Made by a program: the position numbers and the translations under genes. From Octopus sinensis (Eukaryota), in NCBI RefSeq assembly GCF_006345805.1, contig NC_043010.1, positions 16,120,001-16,184,000 of the forward strand: a stretch of 64,000 nt of DNA, in the 5' to 3' direction. Positions 3,201 through 59,670 of this stretch are shown here, in pieces. A model generated the notes under the pieces. The model made no database searches and was not told where the DNA came from. It saw only the letters and a list, made by a program, of their open reading frames with translations. The first letter of the stretch is position 1. Every line of letters starts with the position of its first letter.

Positions 3201-3355
3201 TCGTGTGAAGCTATATATGTGTATGTATGTATGTATGTATGGATGGATGCATATATGTATGTATGTATATATATATATATATATGTGACCTCGTGTGTAT
3301 CGTTGGCAATTTTTTTTCCTCTGTCTTCCCTTCTCTGGATCTTTCCTTCTCCTAT

Positions 3356-3390
3356 GTTTCCGACGAAGAGCTCTGCTCGAAACTTTAAAC
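3356..3390 (+). ncRNA. minimal type-I hammerhead-like motif (variant core CCGACGA) in a PLE pLTR-like unit (~3285-3480)
   Basis: GTTT-CCGACGA-A-GAGC-TCT-GCTC-GAAA-CT-TT-AAAC: stem I GTTT/AAAC, stem II GAGC/GCTC. The unit is flanked by (TA)n on both sides. Confidence 0.55.
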
Positions 3391-3486
3391 CCTCCTTCTT
3401 TCCTGAGCATCCATAAATACTAATTTGTTCCATGTCCTCGCGTTGTTGTGTTTTTTTGTGTTTTCTTGTTTTGGATTAACTATATA

Positions 3487-3527
<41 letters not shown>

Positions 3528-3605
3528 ATATATACGAGTGTATGTATGCATTTATATATTGTTTCAACCCATGCCAGCATAGACAACGGATGTTAAATGA
3601 TGATG

Positions 3606-5165
3606 ATAATAATAATAATAATAATAATTGTGTACAGTGCTCAGGTGCACTACAACTCATCTAAAGTGTATATATAATCAGGTGTAGTTTCGGCGGATTT
3701 CGGAAAGCATGAGGGCCTTAAAAGATGCAGTGTCATGGCAGTCAACAACTGACGCAGGCAGTTTATTCCATGCTTCAGCAACTCTGAGCGTGAAAAAATG
3801 TTTCCAAAAGTCATGGGAGCTGTATTGTTTTCTGACTTTGTAGGCATGTCCACGTGTGTTAGACACATGGAGATCAAAAGGTGTTCAGTGTTGTGTTTGG
3901 TGAGGTGGTTGATAACTTTGTGGGTGTTTACCAAGTCCGTCGCCAAACGCCGGAGCTTCAGTGAATCCATGCCCAGGGAAACAAGGCGCTCAGAATATGG
4001 TAGGTGTCTGATGGAGGGTATGCGTTTGGTGCACGTCTCTGGACAGATTCCAGGAGGTCAATGTTCTGTGCAAGATAGGGGTTCCAAACTGATGATGCGA
4101 ATTCAAGTGTGGTCGTACCATAGCTGTATACAGTTTTAAATAGATGGCTGGAGAGCGGCTAACAAAAGACCTGCTGAGTGATGCCAAGACACCCTCGGCC
4201 TTCCTGACAATCTTAGAGATATGCTTTGACCAACGCAAATCACTGCTGACAGTGATGCCTAGGTCACGCTCGCAAGAGGATTTCTTGATATCAGTGTTGT
4301 GGAGGAGTATGTGAACGCAGGGTTTTTTCTCCCAAAATGCATGGTGGACACTTGTCCACAGCCAGTTTCAGTTGCCAGTCTGTGATCCATTGCTTTGCTG
4401 CATGTGCTAGGTCTGATTGCAGGAAAGAGTTGTAGACATCAGGATCTGTCCTCTTGATTTCAAGGTACAGCTTGATGTCGTCTGCATATTTCAATACTGT
4501 GGCATTCTTTAATTGGCATCTATGTCGTTAATGTATGCCACAAACAGAGGGGACCAAGGACAGATCCCTGTGGTACACCCGATGACATCTCATATGGTGT
4601 AGAGTGCTGTCCTAGAACTGTGACTACCTCCTTTCGGCTGAGGATGAAGGATTTCAACCAGTTAAAAAGGTCATCCCCCACACCCATTGCAGAGAGTTTC
4701 ACCATAAGCCTTTTGTGTGGCACAGAGTTGAAAGCCTTAGCAAAGTCAAGGTAGACAACATCCACCCATGAGCCACTGTCAGTAATCTGAGTAATGTCCT
4801 CAGGAACTCGACAGCTGGTCACTGCAGCTGGAGTTAGGACAAATCCATATTGTGAGGGTCGGATGAGACTGTGAGAGCTCCAGAAGTTTCAAGAGTGTTT
4901 CTCTGACACACGATTCCATCAGTTTTGCAATACAGCTAGTGAGACTGACTGGGCGATAGTTGACAGGTGATGTGCGGTCGCCCTTTTTGAACAGAGGAAT
5001 GACACTGGCAGTTTTCCACTGCTCCGGAGTAGCACCATTGTTGAGACAGTACTGGAAGAAAATAGAAAGCTGGTGTAAAAGGAAGTGCCTGCCACGTTTG
5101 AGAAGCAGGTATGTAACTCCATCGAGACCAGGGGAGGCATAGTTGCGCTTATTTTGAAGGTGACG
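3606..5165 (-). mobile_element. CR1/L2-group LINE, 5'-truncated, with (ATT)n tail
   Basis: Minus-strand fragments SPGLDGV, WKTASVIPLFKKGDR, NYRPVSLTS, VYLDFAKAFNSVPH, GVPQGSVLGP, KYADDIKLY, LYTAMVRPHL, TRGH...FFTLRVAEAWNKLP. (AAT)n at 3606-3629. Confidence 0.9.
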
Positions 5166-5459
5166 TCGCATGATGATGATGATGTGTGTGTATGTATGTA
5201 TAAACACAGCTGCATCTAACATGATGGGGTTTGAAAACTGATATGATATGTAAATCTCTTCTCCCCAACTTATGGGAGGTATGTAAAATATTTTAGGTCA
5301 CATCTCCCATCAATATTCTTAGTCTGGCCCTTTCAGAGTTTGGGGCTGTTTTACAACTTAAATATATGAATAGCAACTTTTAGCATCTTTTACTTCCATC
5401 ATCTTTAATATACAGAGTGAGTAGGGTGTGTGTGTCTGTGTATCTTTATGCCCGTGTGT

Positions 5460-5496
<37 letters not shown>

Positions 5497-6624
5497 TGTG
5501 TGTGTGTTCTGTATTGATGTCTATATATTTTATTTATTTTGGTCAGGAGGGAGAGGCTCTGCCCCTGATCTTTGCAGGCTCTCTAAGGCCAGAGATGTCA
5601 GCAGGGGTGGGTTTCTTAGGAGCAATTCTAAACAGAAACAAAATATGCCAGAGAAAGAATTCTGATGGGCCAACATTGCTGGAAGGAAGAATAGGGAATA
5701 ATGACTAGTGGAGTCCTTGGGATTGTGTCCATAAGATGGCTAACAGGAGATGAACAGATGAGTGGGTTGGAAGGGTTTTTGTAGATGTTACACAAGGCCA
5801 AACTGGCTCCAAGGAACAGAGGCCATTGTAGTAGCAAGCTGGTCCCTGTGTAGCACTGACCCTGTCCCAGAACTTAGAGGAACTGCATTCTGTTATGTGT
5901 TTCACTTATCAACTTTCATTCACAACACATCAGTCAGCTTGAAAGAAGATGCTTGCTCAAGGTGTCAGGCATTGGAATTGAACATGGAGTATTTTAATTG
6001 CATAACCCAACTTCATCTTAGCCTTGGCCATACTGCAGCAGTGGTTACAAAATATAAATCACCATCTTCACAGAATCGTAGGTCCGCAACCTATTGACCA
6101 GCTGACCGTCCCAGCTAGAAACTTCTCCTGGGAATAAAAGAGTCAATAAGGAGTTCTTATACATAGTCGTTTGACCTGCTAAATATAACAGTGGAATTTC
6201 TCTCAAATAAAAAAGAATGCATTCTCTCATACTCTCATGGGGTAGGCATAGCTGGAATCCCTTTGATGCTAAGTTGAGCTCATCAGAGCTACTCTGACAT
6301 TTAAATAACCAGAAAATAAATGCATTAAAAAGGCCTGAGGTATTTCGTTAGAGTGTTTGAGTGCTTTACATTCTGAGTTCAAGTTCTAGGTCTGAGATCA
6401 ACACTAGTTTTCATCCTTCTGAGGGCACTGGGAGTGGTGGTGGGGGGGGGAAAGAAGAGTACATGTCATGTAGGGGGTCAATTTAATTGTCTTTAAATAA
6501 TCCTAGAACTGAGAGGAACAGCAACAGTAGTGGTGGTGGTGGTGGTGGTGGTGGTGACGGTGGCGGGGTTAGTGGTGGTGGCGGCGGCAGTGGTGGTGCT
6601 GCTGCTGTTAGTAGTAGTAGTGGT

Positions 6625-6659
<35 letters not shown>

Positions 6660-6662
6660 TAG

Positions 6663-6895
6663 TTATTTCTTTACTACCCACAAGGGGCTAAACACAGAGA
6701 GGACAAACAAGGACAGACACAAGGGTTAAGTCGGTTATATCAACACCAGTGCGTAACTGGTACCTATTTAATCGACCCCGAAAGGATGAAAGGCAAAGTC
6801 GACCTCGTTGGAATTTGAACTCAGAACTTAGTGGCAGATGAAATATTGCTAAGCATTTCGCCCGACACGCAAACGTTTCTGCCAGCTCGCCACCT
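6663..6895 (-). mobile_element. SINE family B (MetaSINE-like central domain)
   Basis: The reverse complement contains a tRNA-like head and GACTTTGCCTTTCATCCTTTCGGGGTCGATTAAATAGGTACCAG. It lies between (AGT)n tracts. Confidence 0.8.
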
Positions 6896-6934
6896 TAGTA
6901 GTAGTAGTAGTAGTAGTAGTGATTATTCTTTCTT

Positions 6935-6992
<58 letters not shown>

Positions 6993-7402
6993 TTAGTCTA
7001 CCCCTCAAAACAATAACAACAACACCCCCAACTGTTCTCCAAGAAATGTAGGACACACTGGATAATATGGTCTTAGATACACTGTGTAAAAAAACAGAAT
7101 GAATGATGATTGAAGCATGTGCTTGGTCATTGCCAGCCTGGGGTTAAATAACAATCAAAATAAGAACAAATTTAATGGCCACCATTACAACAGCAACGAC
7201 TTTAGCAACAACCACTTGTTGTCCATTACAACAGTTGCCTCTTCAACGACAATGACTTCTGCACCAAGCTCACATTATCAGTCGCAGCAATAACAACCAG
7301 CATTTCTACAATGATCACATCCCCCCATCACCGACCCATATAAACACAACATCTTGCAGTTCCTTAAGTTGGGTGGAGCCACAGGTTTTAAAGAGGGAAG
7401 AT

Positions 7403-7534
7403 ACACACACACACACACACATACACACACACACGCACACACACACACTCACACACACAAACACACTCACACACACACACTCACACACACTCACACACAC
7501 ACTCACTCACACACACACTCACACACACACACAA

Positions 7535-7566
<32 letters not shown>

Positions 7567-7573
7567 ACACACA

Positions 7574-7634
<61 letters not shown>

Positions 7635-7650
7635 ACTCACACAAACACAC
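7403..7650. repeat. (CA)n compound microsatellite
   Basis: About 250 bp of CA repeats with occasional CT/AA interruptions. Confidence 0.95.
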
Positions 7651-8116
7651 ATAGAGCAGTGATCTTTAACCAAAAGGTTTATTTACTCAATGAAACTAAA
7701 TGTATGGTTTTTAAATGTATCCATGTCAATTTATTTCTATCTTAACCGTAACAAGTCTGTCTCAGTAGCTTAAGAAATTAATACAAAGCCAAGGACTATA
7801 CTGATCTGTAAATAAACAAGACCATAAGACAACATAAGTAGTTGTAAGATACTTCCTCTCTGTAGAACAGTTGAAGTAAACATTCCTTATGAGCTGGTAA
7901 TAACCAGGGGAAACTAGTTGAGTTGTTCTTTAGTTATTTAGTTCTCAAAAGAGAGCAACCCAATTGCTCACCCACAAGGACTATTTCCTAAATACTTTAA
8001 TACTTTAAGCTACTCCTCACTCCCCCTCTCTTTCTCTCTCTATATATATATGTGTGTGTATATATATAAGCAATAATAAATCTCTGAACAAGGTATAGAC
8101 AGTAACTACATGACAA

Positions 8117-8451
8117 TGTGAAGTATATTTGCCATCTAAATATGGCTAACCACTAAGGGTGGGTGTTACTGTAGCTTGTAGCTCCAGGAGAACATCTCCA
8201 GCTGGCTACTGACACACTTTCTGTGCCCTATAAATATTTGCATTGGGACCTTTCCATCGAAAACCGGTGGTTGTCGTGTGCTGATGACGGGTCAATACAA
8301 AGAAACTGCAGTCCATGCGTATCACTTAGGTTGATAGGGCACAGAAAGTGTGTCAATAGCCAACTGGAGAAGATGTTCTCCTGGGGCTACAAGCTACAGT
8401 AACATCCACCCTTAGTGGTTAGCCATATTTAGATGGCAAATATACTTCACA
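8117..8451. repeat. long inverted repeat (arms 8117-8231 and 8334-8451), PLE pLTR-like
   Basis: TGTGAAGTATATTTGCCATCTAAATATGGCTAACCACTAAGGGT... is the reverse complement of ...CCCTTAGTGGTTAGCCATATTTAGATGGCAAATATACTTCACA, with few mismatches. Confidence 0.92.
8275..8319 (+). ncRNA. type-I hammerhead ribozyme motif (canonical core, damaged stem II)
   Basis: CGTGTG-CTGATGA-CGGGTCAATACAAA-GAAA-CTGCAG-TC-CATGCG. Stem I is 6 bp (2 G-U), stem III has the palindrome CTGCAG, and the GUC cleavage triplet ends at 8313. Confidence 0.7.
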
Positions 8452-8474
8452 CACACACACACATATATATATAT

Positions 8475-8691
8475 CTTTTACTCTTTTACTTGTTTCAGTC
8501 ATTTGACTGCGGCCATGCTGGAGCACCGCCTTTAGCCGAGCAAATCGACCCCGGGACTTATTCTTTGTAAGTAAGCCCAGTACTTATTCTATCGGTCTCT
8601 TTTGCCGAACCACTAAGTGACGGGGACGTAAACACACCAGCATCGGTTGTCAAGCAATGCTAGGGGGACAAACACAGACACACAAACACAC

Positions 8692-8754
<63 letters not shown>

Positions 8755-8918
8755 GACAGGCTTCTTTCAGTTTCCGTCTACCAAATCCACTCACAAGGCA
8801 TTGTTCGGCCCGGGGCTATAGCAGAAGACACTTGCCCAAGGTGCCACGCAGTGGGATTGAACCCGGAACCATGTGGTTGGTAGGCAAGCTACTTACCACA
8901 CAGCCACTCCTGCGCCTA
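8475..8918 (-). mobile_element. SINE family A (tRNA head plus CORE-like CCTTGGGCAAGT), full length with internal (TA)n
   Basis: The reverse complement starts GGCGCAGGAGTGGCTGTGTGGTAAGTAGC...GGTTCAATCCC (A/B boxes) and ends AAACAAGTAAAAGAGTAAAGA. Confidence 0.88.
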
Positions 8919-8946
8919 TATATATATATATATATAATGACTATGT

Positions 8947-9200
8947 GGAGGTGGATGGCTTAAAGGTTAGAGTGTTGAACACATGGTTGTAAGATTGTGC
9001 TCTCAATTCCTGGACAGGGTGATGAGCTGCATTCTTGACCAAAACACTTCATGTCCCATTGGCCAATCCACTCAGCTGGTGCAAATGGGTATTGCTGTGA
9101 GGAACTGGTGTCCCATCCAGGTGCGGAATGTATATGCCAGAGAAACCAGGAAACTGGCCAATGCTCCTTATAGCGCAATGAGGAATAACCAAACAATATA
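8947..9200 (+). mobile_element. SINE family D, diverged
   Basis: GGAGGTGGATGGCTTAAAGGTTAGAGTGTTG...TCAATTCCTGGAC resembles 34202-34455. Confidence 0.6.
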
Positions 9201-9589
9201 TAATGGACGACACTGTTGATGAGCTGCTAAAGACCAGGTGAAACTAGTTGAGTTGTTCTGTAGTAAAGGCAATGCTGTATTTCAATCATACTGTTTCCAT
9301 GGCAACTTTAAATTTATGTTTATTCAATGTATACATGGGAATTTATTTACAACCTCACCTAACACCATTCTATTATAGTACTATGTTTAGTATGTTAGTA
9401 TTTATATGGATGTGTGTGTGTGTGAATGTGAATACAAATATATACCTATTTCTGTAGACAGGTGTGCATATATGTATATATGTATGCATGTATACTCCGT
9501 ATGTTGCTTGTGGCATTATGTAACCTTATGAAAAGGATTGTGTGTTAAAGTGTAACTTGTATGCGTCTGCGTGTGTGTTTGTGTGTGTG

Positions 9590-10033
9590 TGTGTTGGTGG
9601 CACATAAAGCACAACCATACTGGTGGCACGTAAAGAACATCTTTCGAGCATTGGACCTCACAGAGGCAAATGGCTGAGTTCCTTTCATGTGTTGGGCCTC
9701 ACGGAAGTAATGACTGTGACCTTTGGCATTATATTGTAATTGAGAAGAAGACCCATCAAGCCAAGCAAAATTGCAGTTGTGGCAGGTACCAGTATTGCGC
9801 AAATTGGCACTTGCGTTGGTGGCACTTAAAAGCACCCCAGTGTCATGCAAATGGCACCCATGCTGGTGGCACATAAAAGCACTCTTGGAGTGGTTGGCAG
9901 TAGGAAAGGTATCCAGCCGTAGAAAACCATACGAAATCAGATTGGAGCCTGGTGCAGGCTTCTAGTGTGCCAGCCCAGTCAAAGCGTCCAACCCATGCCA
10001 GCATGAACAACAGATGTTAAATTTAAATGATGA

Positions 10034-10036
<3 letters not shown>
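9590..10036 (+). mobile_element. RTE 3' tail element
   Basis: GGCACATAAAAGCAC units and CCCATGCCAGCATG...GATGATGAT terminus. Confidence 0.7.
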
Positions 10037-10076
<40 letters not shown>

Positions 10077-10181
10077 CACACATATATATATATACGAGGG
10101 GCGTATATACATACACACATATATATATGTGTGTATATACATACACACATATATATACATACACACGTATATATATATATA

Positions 10182-11473
10182 CGAGGGGCGTTCAATAAGT
10201 AATGCCTCTGGCCCACTTGCAGTTTTTTGATCTAGCTGAAATTTTGCATGTGCAATTATTAATATCTTTATAGATTAAGTGGCAAATTACAGCTCTGAAC
10301 TAATTGTGGTTTCTGATTTACAGGTGTTTGAACTGAGTCAAGTGTGAAATGGAGCCTGTTGAGTGTCGAACAGTGATTCGGTTTTTGTATTTGAAAGGAC
10401 GCACACCACGGGAGACTTTTGCTGAAATGAAAGTAACTTATGGTGATGATGCTCCATCATATGACCTTGTAAAATGCTGGCATCGTGAATTCAAACATGG
10501 CCGGAACTCTGTGGAAACAGCTCCCAGATCTGGTCGCCCCACTTCTGCCATTGATGAGGTATCTGTCCGTCAAGTTGAGGCTGCCATTTTGGAGGATCGA
10601 CGCATAACTATTCGCCAAATAGTCCATGAGGTCAAGATTAGTACCAGGTCTGTGGAAACTATCATTCATGACTATTTGCATATGCAAAATGTGTCTGCCA
10701 GATGGATTCCCAGGCTGCTCACACCTTTCCAGAAGCAAGAACGCGTCGAATACTCGAGGATGAATTTGGAGATGTGCCAAGAAGATGAGTCAAACTTTTT
10801 CAAAAGACTGATTACACAGGATGAAACCTAGGTCCATCACTATGATCCAGAGACCAAAGCCCAGTCAATGCAGTGAAAGCACCGTGACTCACCTCCTCCA
10901 AAGAAGGCAAGTGTGCAGCCCTCCACTGGCAAGATCATGCTCACAATCTTCTGGGACCAGAACGGAGTAGTGATGACAGATTTCCTGGCAAAGGGTACCA
11001 CAATTACAGGAGCCTATTATGCTTCACTTTTGAGGAAATTAAGAGAAGCTATCAAAATCAAGAGGCAGGGCAAGATCAGCAAAGGCATCCTCCTCCTGCA
11101 GGACAACGCTCCGGTCCACAACTCGCGTGTCGCCAGATCAGAAGCACAGGCGTGCGGCTATGAACTCCTCCCCCATCCCCCTACTCTCCTGACCTTGCAC
11201 CCTCTGATTTTCATCTCTTCCCAGCCATGAAGTTGTTTTTGAAAGGAAAGCGTTTCCCAGATGATGCAGCCTTGATTTCTGAAGTTACGTCATGGTTGGA
11301 GGAGCAAGCTGGGGTCTTCTACAAAAACGGTCTCCAGAACTGCATCAAACAATGGGAGAAAGGCGTAACTCTGGGTGGTTCCTATGTAGAAAAAGACTAA
11401 TAACTGCGCCAATTTTCGTTGCTCTACTGCTATGGGAAGTGGGTCACGGGCATTACTTATTGAACGCCCCTCG
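10182..11473 (+). mobile_element. mariner DNA transposon, full length (~1.29 kb), TA TSD
   Basis: TIRs CGAGGGGCGTTCAATAAGTAATGCC (10182) and GGCATTACTTATTGAACGCCCCTCG (ends 11473), each flanked by TA. Confidence 0.95.
10349..11400 (+). pseudogene. mariner (D,D34D-type) transposase with two stops and a frameshift
   Basis: HTH region, SARWIPRLL, ITQDET*, LLQDNA, then YSPDLAPSDFHLF in a shifted frame. Stops at ~10829 and ~10874; ends at TAA 11400. Confidence 0.92.
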
Positions 11474-11607
11474 TATATAACGGGAAGCTTTATGAAAATA
11501 GACAAAAGACGAAGGCAGGTTTACGGAAATAAACAAAAGACGAAGGCAGGTGGAATACAAACAAACAATTGTATTAATATGGCGCTAAGGAATATAAATA
11601 AAACAAG

Positions 11608-11645
11608 TCTTTAACGTTTCGAGCCTACGCTCTTCAACAGAAAGA
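11608..11645 (-). ncRNA. minimal hammerhead motif in PLE pLTR (variant core CUGUUGA)
   Basis: Reverse complement TCTTT-CTGTTGA-A-GAGC-GTAG-GCTC-GAAA-CG-TT-AAAGA: 5-bp stem I, 4-bp stem II, palindromic AACGTT stem III. It sits where PLE hammerheads are expected. Confidence 0.72.
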
Positions 11646-12182
11646 TACACAGAGAAGAAACACAGAAAGAAGGAGAGAAAAAAAATGCATGCAGAGGCTA
11701 GCGAATCAACATGGCGATCTGATTTCGGCCAGAGGTCAAAGATCAAACGTGAGACGCAAGAGCGAAATTAGGGGAGATAATAGGGTTAAATGACCTCGCC
11801 CCAACATAAGAGTGTGTGTATGAGAGAGTATTAGTGCGTATGAGAGGTCTGGACATGTGTATGTATATATAATGTGATGTGTAAAGTCGTATGGTGTAGT
11901 GTAGAGAGAGGAGATGAGGGGAGAGGGGGGAGGTAAGGGGGAGAGATGGGAGGGTGAGGGGGAGAAAGAAAGGGGAGAAGAGGGGAGAAGGAAAGAGAGG
12001 AGAAGAGGAGGGGAGAGAAGGGGGAGAAGGAAGGAGAGGAGAGGAGGAGGGAGGATAGAGGGAGAGGGGGAGAGAGAGAGAAGGGGAATAAGGGAGCAGA
12101 GAGAAAGAGGGAGGGAGAAAGAGGGAAGAGGAGTAGGGGTGAAAGGATGAAGGACTGAAGAGAAGTAGGGGTCGGGGGGAGG

Positions 12183-13200
12183 TTAGATGAGGAGGTGGGG
12201 AGAGTTGAGACCAAATGGCGTAAAAGAGCGAAGAGAGAAGATTAATTCCTGTTCACGGCGCAAACGGGAATCCGGATGGCCTCTGTGCAAGGACAAACCG
12301 AACACAGACAGGTGTTGCAAGGAGTGACCGGTGGAGCGGAAATGGCGTGAGACCGGTGTGTCGTTGGCAAGGTGGATGTCACGGAGGTGTTCCGCGAACC
12401 GGTCAGCCAAGCGGCGTCCCGTTTGTCCGATGTACAAGGAATGGCAGAGAGAGCAAGAGACGCAATAGATAATATTGCTGGAGGTGCAGGAGAAGGAGTT
12501 GATGATGCGATAGGGTCGATGATGGGTGCCAGTGAGGAGGGTAGTGTTGGAGAGGTAAGGGCAAGTGTGGCAACATGGGCGGGAGCAGGGGAACGAGCCA
12601 GGTTGGGAGGAAGGGTCAGGGAAGGAGCTATGGACCAAAAGGTCTCGTAGGTTATGGGCTCGTTTGAAAGAGGGGAGGGGTCGGTTAGGGAAGAGGTGTG
12701 AAGTGGACGGGTCGGACTGGAGATGACGGAAAGCTCAAAGAATGGTGCGTTGGAGAGGTAGGGTCGTGGGGTGGTAAGTGAGGGGAAAAGGGAGGTGGGA
12801 GACTACAGGGCGGGTTCGGGGAGAGAGAGCAGATACACGGTCCACGGAACGTGCTCTGGCAAGGGCGGTGTGGATAGTAGTGAGGGGGTATCCACGTAGG
12901 ATGAAGTGGTGAGCCATATGTTGAGACTGAGTCTCAAAGTCATGGTCGTCACTACAGAGCCTACGTAGACGGAGGAATTGGGAATAGGGGATGGAAAGCT
13001 TGGTGTGTTCTGGGTGGGAGGAAGAGAAGTTGAGGTATGAGTGTGAGTCTGTGTGTTTGTAGTGAATGGAGGTGGTAAGAGTGGAGTGAAGAATGCAAAC
13101 CGAAATGTCGAGGAAGGAGACAGAGGTGTTGGAGATAGTGGAAGTGAAGTGGAGGGCTGGATGGAAAGATTGAACGAGAGGAAGGAATCTAGATGTTCAC
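12183..13200 (-). pseudogene. PLE RT C-terminus plus GIY-YIG endonuclease
   Basis: SFLDI..., SHPEHTKLSIPYSQFLRLRRLCS, FILRGYP, one in-frame TGA (12735-37), PCSRPCCHTC, NIIYCVSCSLCHSLYIGQTGRRLADRFAEH, REQELIFSL...GLN. Confidence 0.9.
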
Positions 13201-13233
13201 GGGATATATATATATATATATATATATACATAC

Positions 13234-13285
<52 letters not shown>

Positions 13286-13824
13286 AATTAATAAATAAAA
13301 CATATGCATATATACATACATATATGTACGTACCTACCTCTACATGTATATATACGTGCATATATGGGTACAGGACACCAAAAAAACGTCGAACACAATG
13401 AGAAACGAAAACATAAACACAAAACCAAGGAACTGGACATTTTTCTTAAACAACGAAAAAATAGAGTACAGGACAAATAACACAAGGAAAATTCCCCTTC
13501 TTCAGTCGCCATGGTTTCATCTACTCTACATTTCGAAGGTAAAGGCGATACGCATCTTCAATAGAAACTTTCCTTCCCGCGAAAAGCAAATTAAATAAAA
13601 TTTGAGATCTTTTTGCGGAGGGGTAAAAATGGTAACAAAAACAGGACAGTAACGACAGTACAGAATATAAACAGTAAAAGACAGGACAAGGAGAATAACA
13701 AGACAAGAAGGGCTGTTAAGCCAAACGAGATAAAGTATTACGAATGCTATTTTTGAGAACGGCGAAGGAGCAACAGAAAATGCCGTCTACACTTCAAGGA
13801 AGCCAGGTCAGAAAGACTATACAT

Positions 13825-13869
<45 letters not shown>

Positions 13870-13914
13870 ACACTCACATACATACATACATACATACATA
13901 CATGTGCGTGTCTT

Positions 13915-14130
13915 TTATCTTCTTTACTTGATTCAGACATTAAACTGTGGCCATGCTGGGGCGCTGCCTTGAAGAATTTAGTTCAGCAAATTGACCCCAA
14001 AAGTTTATTTTGGAACTTATTCTATCAGTCCCTTTTGCTGAACCACTAAGTTACAGGGATGTAAACACACCAACACTGGTTGTCAAGTGATGGTGATGAG
14101 GGACAAACACAGACACAAAGACATACACAC
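13915..14130 (-). mobile_element. SINE family A 3' part, diverged
   Basis: GGCCATGCTGG...GAACCACTAAGTTACAGGGATGTAAACACACC. Confidence 0.65.
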
Positions 14131-14135
14131 ATGAG

Positions 14136-14580
14136 TCATCATCATCATCATTTGTCGTTTAACGTCTGCTTTCCATGCTGGCATGGGTTGGATGGTTTGA
14201 CTGAGGACTGGTAAGCCAGTAGGCTGCACCAGGCTTCAATCCAATCTGGCAAAGTTTCTACAGCTGGATGCCCTTCCTAATGCCAACCACTCCGAGAGTG
14301 CAGTGGGTGCCTTTTATGTGCCACCAGCATGAGAGCGAGTCAAGTGGTACTGGCATCAACCACAATTGAATGGTGCTTTTTACATACCACTGGCACGGGA
14401 GCCAGTCGGGCGATACTGGCAAAGACCACGCTCAGATGGTGCTTTTCATATGTCACAGACACAGACCAGTCAGGCAGCATTGACATCGACCATGCTCGAA
14501 TGGTGCTTTTCACATGACTCCAGCACAGGAGCCAGTCAGGCAGCACTGGCAATGATCGTGCTTGAATGGTGCTTTTTTAC
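14136..14580 (-). mobile_element. RTE 3' tail element with ~4 diverged internal units
   Basis: (CAT)n, CTTTCCATGCTGGCATGGGTTGG, repeated GAATGGTGCTTTTT units. Confidence 0.78.
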
Positions 14581-14603
14581 ATAAGTATATATATATATAC
14601 AAT

Positions 14604-14843
14604 TGCAGCATGGAAGGTGTTTATGAACACACAAAAACTGTTAGATTCACTTCAACATTTAAATTTAATTTGCTAAAATATTTTCATTGCTTTGAGACCG
14701 CGTTCTGTTCACAGAATTTTGTCAGTGAACAGGTTGCGGTCTGAAAGTGACAAAAATATTTTGGCAAATTAAATTTAAATGTTGAAGTGAATCCAACGGT
14801 TTTTGTGTGTTTTAAATGGCTTATAAACACCTTCCATGCTGCA
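14604..14843. repeat. fold-back palindrome (~110-bp arms, centre ~14713-14724)
   Basis: TGCAGCATGGAAGGTGTTTAT...CTGTTCAC versus GTGAACAG...ATAAACACCTTCCATGCTGCA. A single-arm copy is at 35823-35966. Confidence 0.88.
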
Positions 14844-14912
14844 TTTGTTTTTGTTCCAGCACACGATCTCAGATCAGGTCACACACATACACACATTTAT
14901 ATATATATATAT

Positions 14913-15166
14913 ATGAAAGAAGGTTTGAAAATGCAATTTTAAAAGATGTTTATTTACTTGACCAGTTTCACTTTTTTAGAAAACGATTGTCAAAAGTAAC
15001 ATGTAAAAGCTTTGTTGTGTTAGGTACTGGTTGTCACAAAATATTAACCAGTACCTAACACAACAAAGCTTTTACATGTTACTTTGGACAATCTTTTTCT
15101 AAAAAAAGTGAAACCGGTTAAGTAAATAAACATCTTTTAAAATTGCATTTTCAAACCTTCTTTCAT
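14913..15166. repeat. fold-back palindrome (arms 14913-15032 and 15046-15166), each arm with a decayed hammerhead-like motif
   Basis: Near-perfect 120-bp arms with a 13-nt loop. Arm motif TTACTT-T(T/G)GACAA...GAAAC(T/C)GGT(C/T)-AAGTAA-ATAAA. Confidence 0.88.
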
Positions 15167-15224
15167 GTATAATTCCACTCGTGCGGTACCTCACAACTCC
15201 ACTTTGTTATATATATATATACTG

Positions 15225-15450
15225 AGCATGGCTGATGCCTGTGCTGTCTGACTGGCTCCTGTGCCAGTTGCACATAAAAGCTCTCACTACACTCTCAGAG
15301 TGGTTGGCATTAGGAAGGGCATCCAGCTGTAGAAACCTTGCCAAATCAGATTGGAGCCTGGTGCAGCCTCCTGGCTTGCCAGTCCTCGGTCAAACTGTCC
15401 AACCCATGGCAGCATGGGAAGCAGACGTTAAACGATGATGATGATGATGA
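15225..15450 (+). mobile_element. RTE 3' tail element
   Basis: Conserved terminus and (GAT)n tail. Confidence 0.75.
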
Positions 15451-15603
15451 TATATAATGGGCTTCTTTCAGTTTCCGTCTACCAAATCCACTCACAAGGC
15501 TTTCATCGGCCTGAGGCTATAGTAGAAGACACTTGCCGAAGGTTCCACACAGTGGGACTGAAGCAACCCTCATACAACACAGACACGTCTGTGCTTATAT
15601 ATG

Positions 15604-15641
<38 letters not shown>

Positions 15642-15689
15642 TATATATGATATGATATATATATATATATATATATGATATGATATCTA

Positions 15690-16105
15690 TACTCTTTTAC
15701 TCATTTACTTGTTTCAGTCATTTGACTGCGGCCATGCTGGAGTGCCGCCTTTAGTCGAGCAAATCGACCCCAGGACTTATTCTTTGTAAGCCCATTTTGT
15801 ACTTATTCTACCGGTCTCATTTGCCGAACTGCTAAGTGACGGGGGAGTAAACACACCAGCATCGGTTGTCAAGCAATGCTAGGGGGACAAACACAGACAC
15901 ACAAACACACACACACATACATATATATATATACATATATACGATAGGCTTCTTTCAGTTTCCGTCTACCAAATCAACTCACAAGGCATTGGTTGGCCCG
16001 GGGCTATAGCAGAAGACACTTGCCCAAGATGCCACGCAGTGGGACTGAACCCGGAACCATGTGGTTGGTTAGCAAGCTACTTACCACACAGCCACTCCTG
16101 TGCCT
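15690..16105 (-). mobile_element. SINE family A, full length
   Basis: Same head and tail as 8475-8918. Confidence 0.88.
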
Positions 16106-16435
16106 ATATGATATAAATATAAATATATGATATATATATATATATATATCAGCATCATCATCATGCTCATCCTCATTTGACATCTGCCTTCCATGCTGTG
16201 AGTTTTGGACAGGTTTCAAAAAGACACAAATCACCTCATAAAACCTGCCTCTGTGCTTATTATAAGAATGGCTACAAGGGTTAATGACAGGAAAAGCATC
16301 TGGCTGGTAAATATTCTGTCGAATTCCTGCGTGGAGAAGCTTAAGGTAAAGGAGGGAGAGGCGTATCACACACACACACGCATGCAATGTAGACACACCC
16401 ACATCTATATTGCTCATGTGCTTATATACTGATGT

Positions 16436-16812
16436 GGAGGTGCAATGGCCCAGTGGTTAGGGCAGCGGACTCGCGGTCGTAGGATCGCGGTTTCGATTCC
16501 CAGACCGGGCGTTGTGAGTGTTTATTGAGCGAAAACACCTAAAGCTCCACGAGGCTCCGGCAGGGATGGTGGTGATCCCTGCTGTACTCTTTCACCACAA
16601 CTTTCTCTCACTCTTACTTCCTGTTTCTGTTGTACCTGTATTTCAAAGGGCCGGCCTTGTCACTCTCTGTGTCACGCTGAATATCCCCGAGAACTACGTT
16701 AAGGGTACACGTGTCTGTGGAGTGCTCAGCCACTTACACGTTAATTTCACGTGCAGGCAGTTCCGTTGATCGGATCAACCGGAACCCTCGTCGTTGTAAC
16801 CGACGGAGTGCT
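16436..16812 (+). mobile_element. SINE family C variant (tRNA head GGAGGTGCAATGGCCCAGTGGTTAGGGCAGCGGACTCGCG)
   Basis: A box TGGCCCAGTGG and B-box-like GGTTTCGATTCC. Shares GAGCGAAAACACCTAAAGCTCCAC and CACAACTTTCTCTCACTCT with 34467, 41310 and 41950. ATATACTGAT occurs on both flanks. Confidence 0.8.
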
Positions 16813-16906
16813 TCCGTCCATATACTGATATGGCTGACTCTGTGTGTGTGCAACTATATTTACATACACATCAAACATAAATATGGATGTATATAGATGT
16901 ATATAT

Positions 16907-17110
16907 GGAGGCCTGTGGTTCAGTGGTTAGGGTGTTAGACTCACAATCACCAGTTTGTGAGTTCTATTCCCAAACTGGGTGGCACATTAAGTCCTTGAGC
17001 AAGGCATTTCGTTTCATGTCACTCCAGTACATGCAGCTGAAAATGAGTACCAGTGCTCTCATGTGGGTTAAATCTCTGACTGACAGGCATCCTCTTTAGA
17101 AGAGTGTCTG
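16907..17110 (+). mobile_element. SINE family D, diverged
   Basis: GGAGGCCTGTGGTTCAGTGGTTAGGGTGTTAGACTC...CCTTGAGCAAGGCA. Confidence 0.6.
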
Positions 17111-17166
17111 ATCCTCTCAGCTGAAATGCTTTGGAAATTCAGATATGTTCAGCGACTGACTACATA

Positions 17167-17510
17167 GGCGCAGGAGTGGCTGTGTGGTAAGTAGCTTGCT
17201 AACCAACCGCATGGTTCCGGGTTCAGTCCCACTGTGTGGCATCTTGGGTAAGTGTCTTCTGCTATAGCCCCGGGCTGACCGATGCCTTGTGAGTGGATTT
17301 GGTAGACGGAAACTGAAAGAAGCCTGTCGTATATATGTATATATATGTTGGTGTGTTTACGTCCCCGTCACTTAGCGGTTCGGCAAAAAGAGACCGATAG
17401 GATAAGTACTGGGCTTACAAAGAATAAGTCCCGGGGTCGATTTGCTCGACTGAAAGGCGGTGCTCCAGCATGGCCACAGTCAAATGACTAAAACAAGTAA
17501 AAGAGTAAAA
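17167..17510 (+). mobile_element. SINE family A (internal deletion)
   Basis: GGCGCAGGAGTGGCTGTGTGG head; AAACAAGTAAAAGAGTAAAAGAG tail. Confidence 0.85.
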
Positions 17511-17546
17511 GAGAGAGAGAGAGAGAGAGTGCTCCGATATGTGGTC

Positions 17547-18005
17547 GTGTGTGTGTGTGTGAGTGTGTGTGTGGTGTGTGTGTGTATGTACATGTGCTTC
17601 CTTTCTGTATTTCGACTCCGCCTCAATGCCTTCATTTCTTTTAAAGGAATGGGGACGGTGGAGATTAAGAAAGCTGAGAACCAAATTTATCAGAAAACAT
17701 ACAATGGTTGCCTTGTGTTTATATACATTCTTTCATTGTGTGTCTAATGTATGTTAATGCTGATACGTGTGTGTGTGTGTGAGTGTGTGTGGTGTGTGTG
17801 TGTATGTACATGTGCTTCCTTTCTGTATTTCGACTCCGCCTCAATGTCTTCATTTCTTTTAAAGGAATGGGGACGGTGGAGATTAAGAAAGCTGAGAACC
17901 AAATTTATCAGAAAACATACAATGGTTGCCTTGTGTTTATATACATTCTTTCATTGTGTGTCTAATGTATGTTAATGCTGATACGTGTGTGTGTGTGAGT
18001 GTGTG
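17547..18005. repeat. tandem duplication, 218-bp unit x2
   Basis: TATGTACATGTGCTTCC at 17585 and 17803. The copies are nearly identical and bounded by (GT)n. Confidence 0.9.
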
Positions 18006-18089
18006 TAGGGTCTGGGTTATGTATGTGTTTGTGTGATGGATATAATGTGTGGGACTTGGACTCTGTATGTTGTATGCATGTGTAGTGAA

Positions 18090-18123
<34 letters not shown>

Positions 18124-18278
18124 CATGCACGTGTGTGTGTGTGTGCGCGAGCGTGTGTGTGTGCACTTGTCTCAGAACCTATCACTCTGTACGTTGTGTG
18201 CAGTTCGCAAATATGAACGTCCCATCGTCATTTTACAGGTTCGTTCTTTTCATGATTTTATGATGGATCACACACATA

Positions 18279-18672
18279 GGCGCAGGAGTGGCTGTGTGGT
18301 ATGTAGCTTGGTTCCAGGTTCAGTCCCATTGTGTGGCATTTTGGGCAAGTGTCTTCTGCTATAGCCCCGGGACGACCAAAGCCTTGTGAGTGGATTTGGT
18401 TGACGGAAACTGAAAGAAGCCTGTCATATATATGTATATATATATATATATGTATGTATGTGTGTGTATGTGTTTGTGTGTCTGTGTTTGTCCCCCTAAC
18501 ATTGGTTGACAACCGATGCTGGTGTGTTTACGTCCCCGTCACTTAGCGGTTCGGCAAAAAGAGACCGATAGAGTAAGTACTGGGCTTACAAAGAATAAGT
18601 CCCAGGGTCGATTTGCTCGACTAAAGGCGGTGCTCCAGGGTGGCTGCAGTCAAATGACTGAAACAAGTAAAA
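18279..18672 (+). mobile_element. SINE family A, full length
   Basis: Head and tail as in other family A copies. Confidence 0.85.
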
Positions 18673-19513
18673 GAAAGAAAGAGACAACCATTTTATATTG
18701 ACACACACACACATGCACACACAGATGCACACACACACACACACACACATGCGCACACCTACACATGCACACAGGCACACACCCACGCAGGCACACACAC
18801 ATACATGCACACACCCACACGCACACATGCACACATGAACACACCCACAGAAGCACACACCCACACATGCGCACACACACCCATACACCCACACACATGC
18901 GCATGTGTGTGTGTGTTAGAGGGAGCCCCATGGAATGAAGTGGTGAAGACTGATGTAAGGATGATGAGAGGACAAAACGACGAAAGACAAAAGAGGATTG
19001 AAAGATGCAGTGTTGGAGAAGACCTGCCCTGATTTCCAAATCTTGTGACACTGTCCCTGTCAAGCCTTCATCCAATGTCCCTAACTTGTTTCCGAATCAT
19101 TCCTTTTCCTATCACTGCAATGTCTTCTATTCACCCCTCGTAGACATACTATTTTGAGCTAAACACTGACTTCTCAACAGCATCATCTTTATCTCTCCAT
19201 TCCATCCACCATTCCATCTGCCCCACACCCACACAACCATATATAATGATGGGCAACCCTGAATCTCCCCTTATTCAACCCACCTCTACTGTCTTCCTTA
19301 TTACCCTCCTGCTCTCTCCCTCTCTCTCTCTCATTAACCTTTCACACTACACTTTCTCTTGCCCTTCTGTAACTCTCTTCCTTAACATTGTCTCTGATTT
19401 CTCTCTATAACATCTTCCACAACCACTCAGCTCTGAGAGCAATGCTTCTTATTTCAGAAACAACTATAAGCCAATGACTTACATAACTTCTGTGGGTTTG
19501 TCATTCATTATTG

Positions 19514-19552
<39 letters not shown>

Positions 19553-19562
19553 ATATATATAT

Positions 19563-19597
<35 letters not shown>

Positions 19598-19613
19598 CCA
19601 TCATGGCTGATCT

Positions 19614-19700
19614 TACCAATCAGTTTCACACTAGGGGTTCGACAGCGTTAGGTAACTAGGTAACAGTTTGATTATTATAACCCTGTGCTCTTCAGAGATA
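19614..19700 (-). ncRNA. hammerhead-like motif with long stem II, decayed stem I
   Basis: Reverse complement TATCT-CTGAAGA-GCACAGGG(TT)...(AA)CCCCTAGTGT-GAAA-CTGA-TT-GGTAA. It lies between (TA)n and (TG)n. Confidence 0.5.
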
Positions 19701-26316: not shown

Positions 26317-27520
26317 TATGCTAGTATTTTAATAAGTAAATAGACAAACTGAAAGCATGAAATGCTAGGACTTGTCAGCCAGGGAATTGGGATACATTCC
26401 ATGCCACACTTTACATACGACACACCCTGGATATCTGTTTCATTCAGAATTTTTATAATGTGGATGATTTATCAAAACACCAAGAAAGAATTCTTAGTAA
26501 AACACACATACACACACACACACTCACACACGCACACATATTTACACTTATACATGTGTGTGTGTGTGTGTGTGCACGTGTGTGAGCACGTGCAACAAAT
26601 GCCCCCCCCCCACCACCACCACCACCACACACACATATCTACACATACTCCTGACTTTGACATTGTATGGGAGTTGTAAATGAGTGTTGCCATCATCCAA
26701 GCAATGTCATTCGGTTTCTAGTCTTCTGTAGAAATGTCTGGCAATGGGTGGACGGGTGGATGGGGGGAATATTTCCTTACTTGAAAACTGGTGAGGATTA
26801 GCAATAGGAAAGGCATCTGGCCATGGAGAATCCACCTCAACAAATTCCATCTGGCCTATGCGAGCTCGGAAATGAAGATGATAAAACAATGGTGGTGATG
26901 ATGATGATGTTGATGGTGGTGGTGGTGGTGGTGTTGTTGGTGGTGATGGTGATGGTGATGGTGAGGAGGAGGAGGATGATGATGGTGGTGATGATGATGA
27001 TGATGATGATGAGGATGAGTATGATGATGATAATGAGGAGGATGATGAGGATGTTGATGCTGATGGCATCATCATCATCATTATCCTCACCGTTTAACGT
27101 CTGCTTTCCATGTTGGCATGGGTTGAATGGTTTAACAGGAGCTGGCCAGATTCCAATTGTCTCTTGTGGCATAGTATAGATATATAAATAATCATTTCGA
27201 GTTTCTTTATACATACTGGCATCAGCTGGATGGGTCTTCCACAGTTCTTGCCATTCAGTGAAGTGAAGTCCTTCATCATTTGCCACACACACTACAACAG
27301 GGGTAAAAACCAGCCAACTCTGTTATGGTCCATATGATACTGTGTCATGGCTTTTATAGGGCCGGGTGCCATTCCTGTCACCAGTCACTTAACAGTGTAG
27401 ACAAACTGTACTGTATTCTACCAGTGGCACTAGACAGGGCACACCCATCAAGACTGTAGTTTGCCCTTGTCTTTGTTTTATACATACATGATTACAGGCA
27501 GACTGACATATTTACATATA

Positions 27521-37444: not shown

Positions 37445-38105
37445 ACGGGTACAGGTGGGTAGATGAGACAGGTAGAGGTGGGTAGATGAATTGGGACAGG
37501 TAGAGGTGGGTAGATGAATTGGGACAGGTAGAGGTGGGTAGATGAATTGGGACAGGTGGGTAGATGAATTGGGAGAGGTAGAGGTGGGTAGATGAATTGG
37601 GACAGGTACAGGTGGGTAGATGAATTGGGACAGATACAGGTTGGTAGATGAATTGGGACAGGTAGAGATGGGTAGATGAATTGGGACAGATAGAGGTGGG
37701 TAAATGAATTGGGACAGGTAGAGGTGGGTAGATGAATTGGGACAGGTACAGGTGGGTAGATGAATTGGGACAGGTAGAGGTGGGTAGATGAATTGGGACA
37801 GGTAGAGGAGGGTAGATGAATTGGGACAGGTACAGGTGGGTAGATGAATTGGGACAGGTAGAGGTGGGTAGATGAATTAGGACAGGTAGAGGTGGGTAGA
37901 TGAATTGGGACAGGTAGAGGTGGGTATATCAATTGGGAGAGGTAGAGGTGGGTAGATTAATTTGGACAGGTAGAGGTGGGTAGATGAATTGGGACAGGTA
38001 GAGGTAGGTAAATGAATTTGGACAAGTAGAGGTGGGTAGATGAATTGGGAGAGGTAGAGGAGGGTAGATGAATTGGGACAGGTACAGGTGGGTAGATGAA
38101 TTGGA
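37445..38105. repeat. 28-bp G-rich minisatellite (~23 copies)
   Basis: Unit GACAGGTAGAGGTGGGTAGATGAATTGG; GACA at 37467 and 37495. Confidence 0.95.
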
Positions 38106-59400: not shown

Positions 59401-59670
59401 CTTTTAACGTGCCACTGGCACTGATGCCAGTTAGCTGCTCTGGCAACAATCACGCTCGAATGGTGCTTTTAACGTGCCACTGGCACTGGTGCCAGTTAGC
59501 TGCTCTGGCAACAATCACGCTCGAATGGTGCTTTTAACGTGCCACTGGCACTGGTGCCAGTTAGCTGCTCTGGCAACAATCACGCTCGAATGGTGCTTTT
59601 AACGTGCCACTGGCACTGATGCCAGTTAGCTGCTCTGGCAACAATCACGCTCGGATGGTGCTCTTAGCGC
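56488..59670 (-). mobile_element. RTE 3' tail element hosting the 65-bp array
   Basis: (CAT)n and terminus at 56488-56660, diverged units at 56660-56780, then the array, then CACGCTCGGATGGTGCTCTTAGC as at 932-955. Confidence 0.85.
56781..59660. repeat. 65-bp tandem array, 44 full units plus a partial unit
   Basis: Unit AACAATCACGCTCGAATGGTGCTTTTAACGTGCCACTGGCACTG(G/A)TGCCAGTTAGCTGCTCTGGC. The span 56781 to 59640 is 2859 bp = 44 x 65 - 1. Confidence 0.97.

What the first reader, a model, noticed from the sequence alone, without database searches (positions are those of the whole stretch)
3356..19700. A population of minimal hammerhead ribozyme motifs in tiny (TA)n-embedded PLE-type units, with differing catalytic cores
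Seen: type-I hammerhead topology (stem I - CUGANGA-like - stem II - GAAA - short, often palindromic stem III - UH - stem I') occurs at 3356-3390 (+, CCGACGA), 8275-8319 (+, CUGAUGA), 11608-11645 (-, CUGUUGA), 14954-14999 (-) and 15079-15125 (+) (UUGACAA and UGGACAA), and 19614-19700 (-, CUGAAGA). The hosts are unrelated 100-400-bp sequences bracketed by (TA)n/(CA)n, and only one is attached to a coding PLE. Known: Penelope-like elements carry minimal hammerheads in their pLTRs, thought to act as dimers via the palindromic stem III. Inference: several non-autonomous, microsatellite-associated, ribozyme-bearing families (solo pLTRs or retrozyme-like units) are dense in this genome. Some cores deviate while their stems stay perfect, so the deviations may be family-level variants rather than decay.
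Basis: partly seen in the sequence, partly recalled or inferred. Interest (0 to 1): 0.75.

Follow-up and report, generated by a model that had tools for sequence, protein, structure and literature searches.

The report
Variant hammerheads in Penelope retrotransposon tails
The six spots are hammerhead-shaped RNA motifs at the tail ends of five abundant repeat families; three unusual core spellings are shared by hundreds to thousands of copies rather than being decay, and they likely act as slowed self-cutting RNAs of Penelope-type jumping genes, though cutting is untested.

Summary
All six motifs are present and belong to five repeat families (A-E) of this 2.7-Gb animal genome. Three core variants are family-level. 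A6U: 85 of 85 readable cores in a lineage of at least 17,472 copies, including both ends of a full-length element. U4C: 68 of 93 readable cores in a lineage of at least 11,478. U3-A8: family D and half of B. UGGACAA is private decay, and four of the six window copies have damaged stems or cores. A and C are related 3' ends of protein-coding Neptune-type Penelope-like elements, not unrelated non-autonomous units. Only B (353-nt head-to-tail, no coding partner found) looks retrozyme-like. The fold is under selection: C3-G8/U3-A8 and stem pairs covary in B, and the motif is conserved across A/C subfamilies. Most copies span the cut site, but truncated A6U copies peak there (18 of 57), which could be cleavage or reverse-transcriptase stalling. 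The kind, U3-A8 and U4C are in print; I found no printed fixed A6U, but one key paper was unreadable. The scan found these families before on other DNA of this genome. Cleavage is untested.

The parts
3283..3481 (+). Family A unit: 3' (pLTR) end of a Neptune-type Penelope-like element, between (TA)n tracts
   Evidence: 3,412 first-look candidates; 11,478 exact 3'-anchor matches, control 2; ORF linkage in L190 and L225
3356..3390 (+). Minimal type-I hammerhead with U4C core CCGACGA and extra A after A9; predicted cut after 3386; this copy has a private G>T at 3384 that breaks the ACGU palindrome
   Evidence: C4 in 29 of 30 nearest copies
8091..8451 (.). Family B fold-back insertion: + copy 8229-8451 and inverted partial copy 8091-8248 of a 353-nt non-coding head-to-tail unit
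8275..8319 (+). Hammerhead with CUGAUGA core, C10.1.A11.1 mismatch and palindrome ACUGCAGU; stem II decayed in this copy; predicted cut after 8313
11480..13196 (-). Family C: 5'-truncated Neptune-type element (RT thumb, CxxxxCxxC linker and GIY-YIG endonuclease at 13196-12186 with one internal stop; 3' UTR; pLTR end)
   Evidence: 95% protein identity to the full-length copy in L181
11608..11645 (-). Intact minimal hammerhead with A6U core CUGUUGA, extra A and palindrome ACGU; predicted cut between 11613 and 11612
   Evidence: U6 in 30 of 30 nearest copies
14908..15205 (.). Family D fold-back insertion (- copy 14908-15032, + copy 15045-15205), AT-rich, no ORF seen
14954..14999 (-). Hammerhead with U3-A8 core UUGACAA and U10.1.U11.1; palindrome decayed to ACUGGU
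15079..15125 (+). Same hammerhead; UGGACAA is a private U4G mutation of this copy
   Evidence: 1 of 30
19597..19700 (-). Family E: old copy (median 15% from the majority sequence) with canonical CUGAAGA core, long loop II and a CpG-decayed 10-nt palindrome; motif 19614-19699

Best explanation
The six motifs are minimal type-I hammerheads at the 3' ends of five repeat families, two of them protein-coding Neptune-type Penelope-like elements, and their lineage-fixed core changes (A6U, U4C, U3-A8, 10.1-11.1 mismatch) likely make them slowed, conditional self-cutters rather than dead relics. Shown: family structure, fixation of the variants, linkage of A and C to RT-endonuclease ORFs, covariation of the fold, and (TA)n flanks. 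Inferred from published Penelope work: the element's endonuclease nicks AT-rich DNA and the RT copies the RNA from a fixed start in the pLTR tail. This gives sharp 3' ends, variable 5' truncation and fold-back pairs, and B, D and E would borrow such enzymes. Inferred: the palindromic stem III pairs between two copies, or the fold is completed by the element's protein, so cutting would be slow. Most templates are copied uncut, and a small minority would be copied from the cut RNA and start at the cut site.
For: Fixation read from samples anchored outside the motif: U6 in 85 of 85 readable cores of 100 listed, with all four bases at the free position 7 (hand tally); C4 68, U4 24, G4 1, truncated 7 of 100 (hand tally; script on the first 30: 21/6/1/2). 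U4 copies carry linked diagnostic sites (Fisher p down to 9e-10) and are basal, so C4 looks derived and then diversified (support 84/91). Full-length L181 has CUGUUGA in both pLTRs around an RT-endonuclease ORF. Across 9 subfamily majority sequences, 25 of 36 motif columns are invariant against 28 of 126 flank columns (p=3e-7), and H17 is never G. B lineage: pair 3-8 is C-G 22, U-A 21, U-G 4, unpaired 2 of 49; 39 cells changed on both sides against 11.2 shuffled (0/500); stem III 99% paired with 2+2 double changes. 5' junctions of (TA)n-flanked A6U copies: 18 of 57 begin with the predicted 3' product, 19 one or two steps 3' of it, and no 5'-side class exceeds 5 (hand tally; Poisson 4e-6 against a uniform null). 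Natural U4C and A6C variants keep low activity (PMC3088659).
Against: No cleavage was measured. In a pairwise mutagenesis of a hammerhead, all CUGA-region single and double mutants except the C-G to G-C swap had low activity (PMC9901934). 93 of 100 C copies and 93 of 100 A copies extend 5' of the cut site. No B copy among 100 listed rows starts at it (read by eye). The junction peak is 18 against 8 for the -1 and -2 classes together (p=0.076), and could come from RT stalling at the fold or from TA/A-tract microhomology. In vitro, hammerhead mutants did not affect insertion by an Anolis Penelope protein (PMC11167929). Related sequences can beat the shuffle control; by pairs with a double change it was 33/500. 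Subfamily groups were chosen by me, and copies were picked with a pattern on the motif itself.
Confidence: 0.55

Rival explanations
1. The variant cores are catalytically dead. The motif is kept as a structural or protein-binding element of the pLTR, or the mutations hitch-hiked in master copies because cutting is dispensable for transposition.
For: Most copies span the cut site. Hammerhead mutants did not impair insertion in vitro (PMC11167929). Naiads spread without canonical hammerheads, and the authors suggest hammerheads may parasitize these elements (PMC8557442). CUGA mutants have low activity.
Against: Variation follows catalytic rules: position 7 and loop II free, H17 never G, the 3-8 pair swapped as a pair, the palindrome kept by double changes. 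5' ends peak at the predicted cut.
Confidence: 0.33
2. All five families are non-autonomous retrozymes or solo pLTRs that move as small circles.
For: B is a 353-nt head-to-tail unit, and no PLE ORF attributable to it was found beside 150 B, D and E loci with three PLE queries. A has a shared 5' end at -72 to -83 in 14 of 29 unselected copies. One D locus is a direct repeat of about 330 bp.
Against: C copies have scattered 5' ends and run into an ORF. A is joined to an ORF in L190 and L225. Direct repeats are rare: 2/30, 7/29, 3/29, 3/29 and 0/29 for A-E.
Confidence: 0.08
3. The motifs are chance matches in repeat-rich DNA, and the odd cores are random decay.
For: A loose descriptor gives 5 sites against 2.0 in shuffles. 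UGGACAA is indeed private decay.
Against: 20,632 exact motif matches against 0 for the reversed pattern; 12 distinct motifs in 369 kb of flanks against 0 in 8 shuffles; fixation and covariation as above.
Confidence: 0.02

Closest known systems
Minimal type-I hammerheads (min-HHR) of metazoan Penelope-like elements (PMC4209133; read parts 1-2 of 4, supplements not seen)
   Same: Short stem I, extra nucleotide after A9 (A, C), palindromic stem III, location in pLTRs, mostly solitary copies, opposite-strand pairs 100-700 bp apart, U3-A8 families (about 1,300 hits in Schistosoma).
   Different: The text read reports no fixed A6U or U4C family. Here these dominate lineages of over 17,000 and 11,000 copies, and stem II is shorter (4 bp in A and C).
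Small hammerhead variants of Penelope-like retrotransposons that cleave as dimers (PMC5785218; not held, title seen only in reference lists; content recalled)
   Same: Diminished, palindromic stem III; Penelope association.
   Different: Unknown: I could not check whether it lists A6U or U4C, which bears directly on novelty.
Neptune clade of Penelope-like elements (PMC8557442; passages)
   Same: C-terminal GIY-YIG with CX2-5CxxC linker and CCHH motif, pLTR tandem layout, microsatellite insertion bias.
   Different: Clade assigned by motifs only, no tree; the hammerhead core is non-canonical.
Animal non-LTR retrozymes (PMC7229834, passages; bioRxiv 10.64898/2026.07.22.740005, part 1 of 5 and passages, supplements not seen)
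   Same: Family B: about 350-nt non-coding head-to-tail unit with a type-I hammerhead.
   Different: B occurs as partial tandems and fold-backs with a two-step 3' tail, and its core switches between C3-G8 with C.A and U3-A8 with G-C; circles not shown.
Natural hammerhead core variants (PMC3088659; section 8 and passages, figure not seen)
   Same: U3-A8, U4C (viroid), A6C (phage) and U10.1.U11.1 are described, the last three with low or reduced activity.
   Different: A6U is not named in what I read; those were rare single examples, not high-copy retroelement lineages.

Membership tests
Type-I minimal hammerhead of PLEs | Order stem I - CUGANGA-like - stem II - GAAA - stem III - UH - stem I' | tested here: met
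   for all five family majority sequences
Type-I minimal hammerhead of PLEs | Canonical CUGANGA core, or the published U3-A8 swap | tested here: not met
   Met for B, D, E and the older A subfamily; not met for C (A6U, 85 of 85) and most of A (U4C, 68 of 93)
Type-I minimal hammerhead of PLEs | Palindromic stem III able to pair between copies | tested here: met
   ACGU, ACUGCAGU, ACCGGU and a 10-mer; self-duplex -1.7 to -16.6 kcal/mol; double changes in B
Type-I minimal hammerhead of PLEs | G10.1-C11.1 pair | tested here: inconclusive
   Present in A, C and U3-A8 B subfamilies; C.A in C3-G8 B subfamilies (25 of 49 unpaired); U.U in D
Type-I minimal hammerhead of PLEs | Covariation of stems across copies | tested here: met
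   B lineage; conservation contrast for A/C; not tested formally for D and E
Type-I minimal hammerhead of PLEs | Site-specific self-cleavage | not testable with these tools
   Only an indirect 5'-junction peak
Neptune-clade Penelope-like element (families A, C) | RT followed by CX2-5CxxC linker and GIY-YIG endonuclease with CCHH | tested here: met
   (RVT_1, E=2.7e-8) for C; related, frameshifted ORF for A
Neptune-clade Penelope-like element (families A, C) | pLTR-ORF-pLTR partial tandem with a hammerhead in both repeats | tested here: met
   L181: 681-column repeat, 92% identical, motifs 4,273 bp apart; not seen for A
Neptune-clade Penelope-like element (families A, C) | Placement in an RT phylogeny | not tested
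   No reference PLE proteins were held
Non-LTR retrozyme (family B) | Non-coding head-to-tail unit of 170-400 nt with one type-I hammerhead | tested here: met
   Period 353 nt in L064 and L078; no attributable PLE ORF with three queries
Non-LTR retrozyme (family B) | Complete tandem units, each with a hammerhead | tested here: inconclusive
   Mostly partial tandems and fold-backs
Non-LTR retrozyme (family B) | Abundant circular RNA | not testable with these tools
   No raw RNA reads were available; B itself was not searched

The most novel reading that the evidence does not exclude
A6U and U4C hammerheads are working, deliberately weakened ribozymes. Successful Penelope lineages in this genome repeatedly keep the hammerhead fold but swap in a weakening change (A6U in C, U4C independently in A and B, a 10.1-11.1 mismatch or U3-A8 in B and D). 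The pile-up of A6U insertions at the predicted cut is a genomic record of cleavage in the germ line. Selection would thus tune cutting down rather than on or off.
Probability: 0.35. Interest if true: 0.68.

Novelty: new variant of a known kind. Interest (0 to 1): 0.45.

Why it matters
Whether Penelope hammerheads need to cut is an open question: they are nearly universal in these elements, slow in vitro, and dispensable in one reconstituted system. This genome offers natural matched pairs (U4 and C4 sister subfamilies; A6 and U6 sister lineages; C3-G8 and U3-A8 subfamilies of B), each with hundreds to thousands of copies, so cutting rate can be set against evolutionary success. It also means that descriptor searches requiring CUGANGA miss the most abundant motifs here.

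Tried and rejected
Rfam scan: no hammerhead among the rows shown; hits were microsatellite and inverted-repeat matches to miRNA models. A loose descriptor was barely above shuffles. CpG decay as the source of CTGACGA in A: rejected, because U4 copies share linked sites; one young copy, L034, is such a reversion. U4 as a reversion nested in C4: not supported by the tree, though support is moderate (L106 and most of the over-sampled young copies were left out). RNA evidence: no RNA holder listed for family A; laying four contig sets showed no start or end sites; uninformative. No solved structure matched the full-length ORF. Pfam found RVT_1 only in L181, not in L190 or L186. ORFs beside B (L083/L186) and E (L142/L187) are not shown to belong to those families. 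PMC5785218 and PMC5850863 were not held. PMC11014351 and PMC3376415 (passages) added nothing. The supplements of PMC9901934 were listed, not read. PMC10085705 was seen only as a search listing.
Full report
Observation. The six motifs are at the stated places with type-I hammerhead order. From the window alone only two are convincing. A descriptor demanding a palindromic stem III finds 11640(-) and 19695(-), against a mean of 0.017 hits in 60 block-wise dinucleotide shuffles. A looser one finds 5 sites against 2.0. Rfam shows no hammerhead among the 150 of 159 rows listed. The other four motifs are validated by their families.

Families. Searches of G000 with each host returned 40 scored matches out of 3,412 (A, 3283-3481), 1,710 (B, 8091-8451), 2,410 (C, 11480-13196), 3,024 (D, 14908-15205) and 577 (E, 19597-19700) first-look candidates. 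Among the 30 nearest copies, the window's included, the cores were: A CCGACGA 25 (C4 in 29), B CTGATGA 26, C CTGTTGA 28 (U6 in 30), D TTGACAA 25 with TGGACAA only in the window copy, and E CTGANGA 29. Median divergence from the majority was 2.0, 2.8, 0.7, 2.0 and 15%. These sets are biased to resemble the window copies, so I resampled with patterns anchored 3' of the motif. For C: 17,472 exact matches (control 13); of the first 100 listed, 15 had no readable core, and all 85 others had U6, with U, A, C and G all seen at position 7 (by eye). For A: 11,478 (control 2); C4 68, U4 24, G4 1, truncated 7 (by eye; script on the first 30 gave 21, 6, 1, 2). For D: 567 (control 0); 16 of the first 20 TTGACAA, none C3-G8. 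The shared A/C motif pattern has 20,632 exact matches and 0 for its reversal. In 369 kb of flanks the strict descriptor found 12 distinct motifs, several from further families, against 0 in 8 shuffles; these flanks adjoin repeats and are not a random sample.

What the hosts are. C in the window encodes an RT thumb, a CxxxxCxxC linker and a GIY-YIG endonuclease with the CCHH motif, with one stop; PMC8557442 (passages) gives this linker for Neptune and Nematis elements and links it to microsatellite targeting in Neptune. C copies share a sharp 3' end abutting (TA)n and have scattered 5' ends. L181 is a full-length copy: two pLTRs 92% identical, both with CUGUUGA, around an RT-endonuclease ORF in two frames. 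A is a sister lineage. It has the same stem II and ACGU palindrome, and in L190 and L225 it lies behind an ORF about 70% identical to that of C, separated by a (CA)n-rich UTR. B is a 353-nt head-to-tail non-coding unit with partial tandems, fold-backs and two 3' end points about 50 nt apart, like the Penelope tail described in PMC11167929 (parts 1-2 of 4). D is AT-rich, without an ORF in the 700 nt upstream seen by eye, and fold-back in 11 of 29 loci. E is old, with up to 590 nt of shared upstream sequence. Three PLE queries found no ORF attributable to B, D or E in 150 loci, which is weak evidence.

Is the fold selected? In A, U4 copies share diagnostic sites (for example 12 of 14 against 2 of 55, p=9e-10). 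With C as outgroup they are basal, and C4 is nested (support 84/91) and then splits into further subfamilies. Across nine subfamily majority sequences of A and C, 25 of 36 motif columns are invariant against 28 of 126 flank columns (p=3e-7); the groups were chosen by me. The B lineage (1,009 matches, control 87) is the best test. Of 76 anchored segments 55 parsed as hammerheads, and I aligned 50, leaving out four inverted duplicates and one gapped row. Pair 3-8 is C-G in 22, U-A in 21, U-G in 4 and unpaired in 2 of 49. Stem II has G-C/A-U swaps, and stem III is 99% paired, with ACCGCGGU and ACUAUAGU replacing ACUGCAGU in two rows each. Cells changed on both sides number 39 against 11.2 shuffled (0/500); pairs with such a change number 6 against 3.7 (33/500); slid structures pair at 22-46% against 88%. 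Relatedness inflates these numbers, but the central palindrome swaps make sense mainly for a duplex between two copies. In B, C3-G8 cores go with C10.1.A11.1 and U3-A8 cores with G10.1-C11.1, and U4C appears again in 10 of 55 rows.

Does it cut? This was not measured. 93 of 100 C and 93 of 100 A copies extend 5' of the predicted cut, so uncut or re-ligated RNA is the main template, as in the Anolis system where hammerhead mutants did not affect insertion. There, among 57 distinct (TA)4-flanked junctions near the site (3 near-duplicates dropped, by eye), 18 begin with the three A's of the predicted 3' product, 12 with two, 7 with one and 1 with none. On the 5' side the classes hold 4, 4, 4, 2 and 5. 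Against a uniform null the peak has p=4e-6, but against the two adjacent 5' classes together p=0.076, and junctions are ambiguous by one base. RT stalling at stem I or A-tract microhomology could produce it. B showed no such starts in 100 rows.

Comparison with print. Minimal palindromic hammerheads in pLTRs, the extra nucleotide, solitary and inverted copies, low activity and U3-A8 families are in PMC4209133. U4C, A6C and U10.1.U11.1 are natural variants with low or reduced activity in PMC3088659. CUGA mutants were low in PMC9901934. Searches for hammerhead with U4C or A6U, hammerhead ribozyme with octopus, and searches showed no report of a fixed A6U family. One twister paper holds the word A6U, and I did not read that passage. 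The most relevant paper, PMC5785218, was not held, and unread supplements may list these variants. Earlier notes of this scan describe the same A6U, U4C and U3-A8 families on other pieces of this genome; they are not independent support.

Verdict. A real, dense population of Penelope-type minimal hammerheads. The kind is known. The lineage-wide A6U and recurrent U4C cores, in families that kept amplifying while keeping the fold, are a new variant worth a bench test. Identity of the elements: about 0.9. Weak but real cleavage: about 0.55. Interest 0.45.

Noticed in passing
window 10182-11474 (+): A degenerate mariner-type DNA transposon with terminal inverted repeats sits in the TA flank at the 3' end of the family C element; family label recalled, not searched.
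   Followed up: no
window 56776-59666: A 44.5-copy array of a 65-bp unit at 98% matches; similar 63-66-bp units occur as short arrays at 41-239, 826-979 and 14368-14576.
   Followed up: no
window 37467-38104: A 28-bp minisatellite of 23 copies.
   Followed up: no
window 14617-14843 and about 26975-27110: Other long inverted repeats; the first is a fold-back of about 230 bp next to the family D insertion.
   Followed up: no
window about 3630-5160 (-): A truncated LINE-type reverse transcriptase region directly after the family A unit, recognised by eye.
   Followed up: no
flanks of L001-L230: At least six further minimal hammerheads from other families, including a U3-A8 core with ACGCGU palindrome and several long-loop-II canonical cores.
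   Followed up: no
L186:2268-3287 (-) and L187:2429-2900 (-): Fragments of two other, distant Penelope-like endonuclease ORFs (27-30% identity to family C); the second lies about 1.1 kb upstream of a fold-back family E copy.
   Followed up: partly
L013/L014 and L199 (contig C8721): Head-to-tail 1.6-kb truncated family C copies with (TA)n at each junction.
   Followed up: partly
listing, family D: About 5 of 100 copies break within two bases of the predicted cut, but TA microhomology makes these junctions ambiguous.
   Followed up: partly
L154, L159, L174 5' ends: The shared 5' end of family A falls on a TCATTC initiator-like sequence (motif recalled), which may mark the pLTR transcription start.
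   Followed up: no
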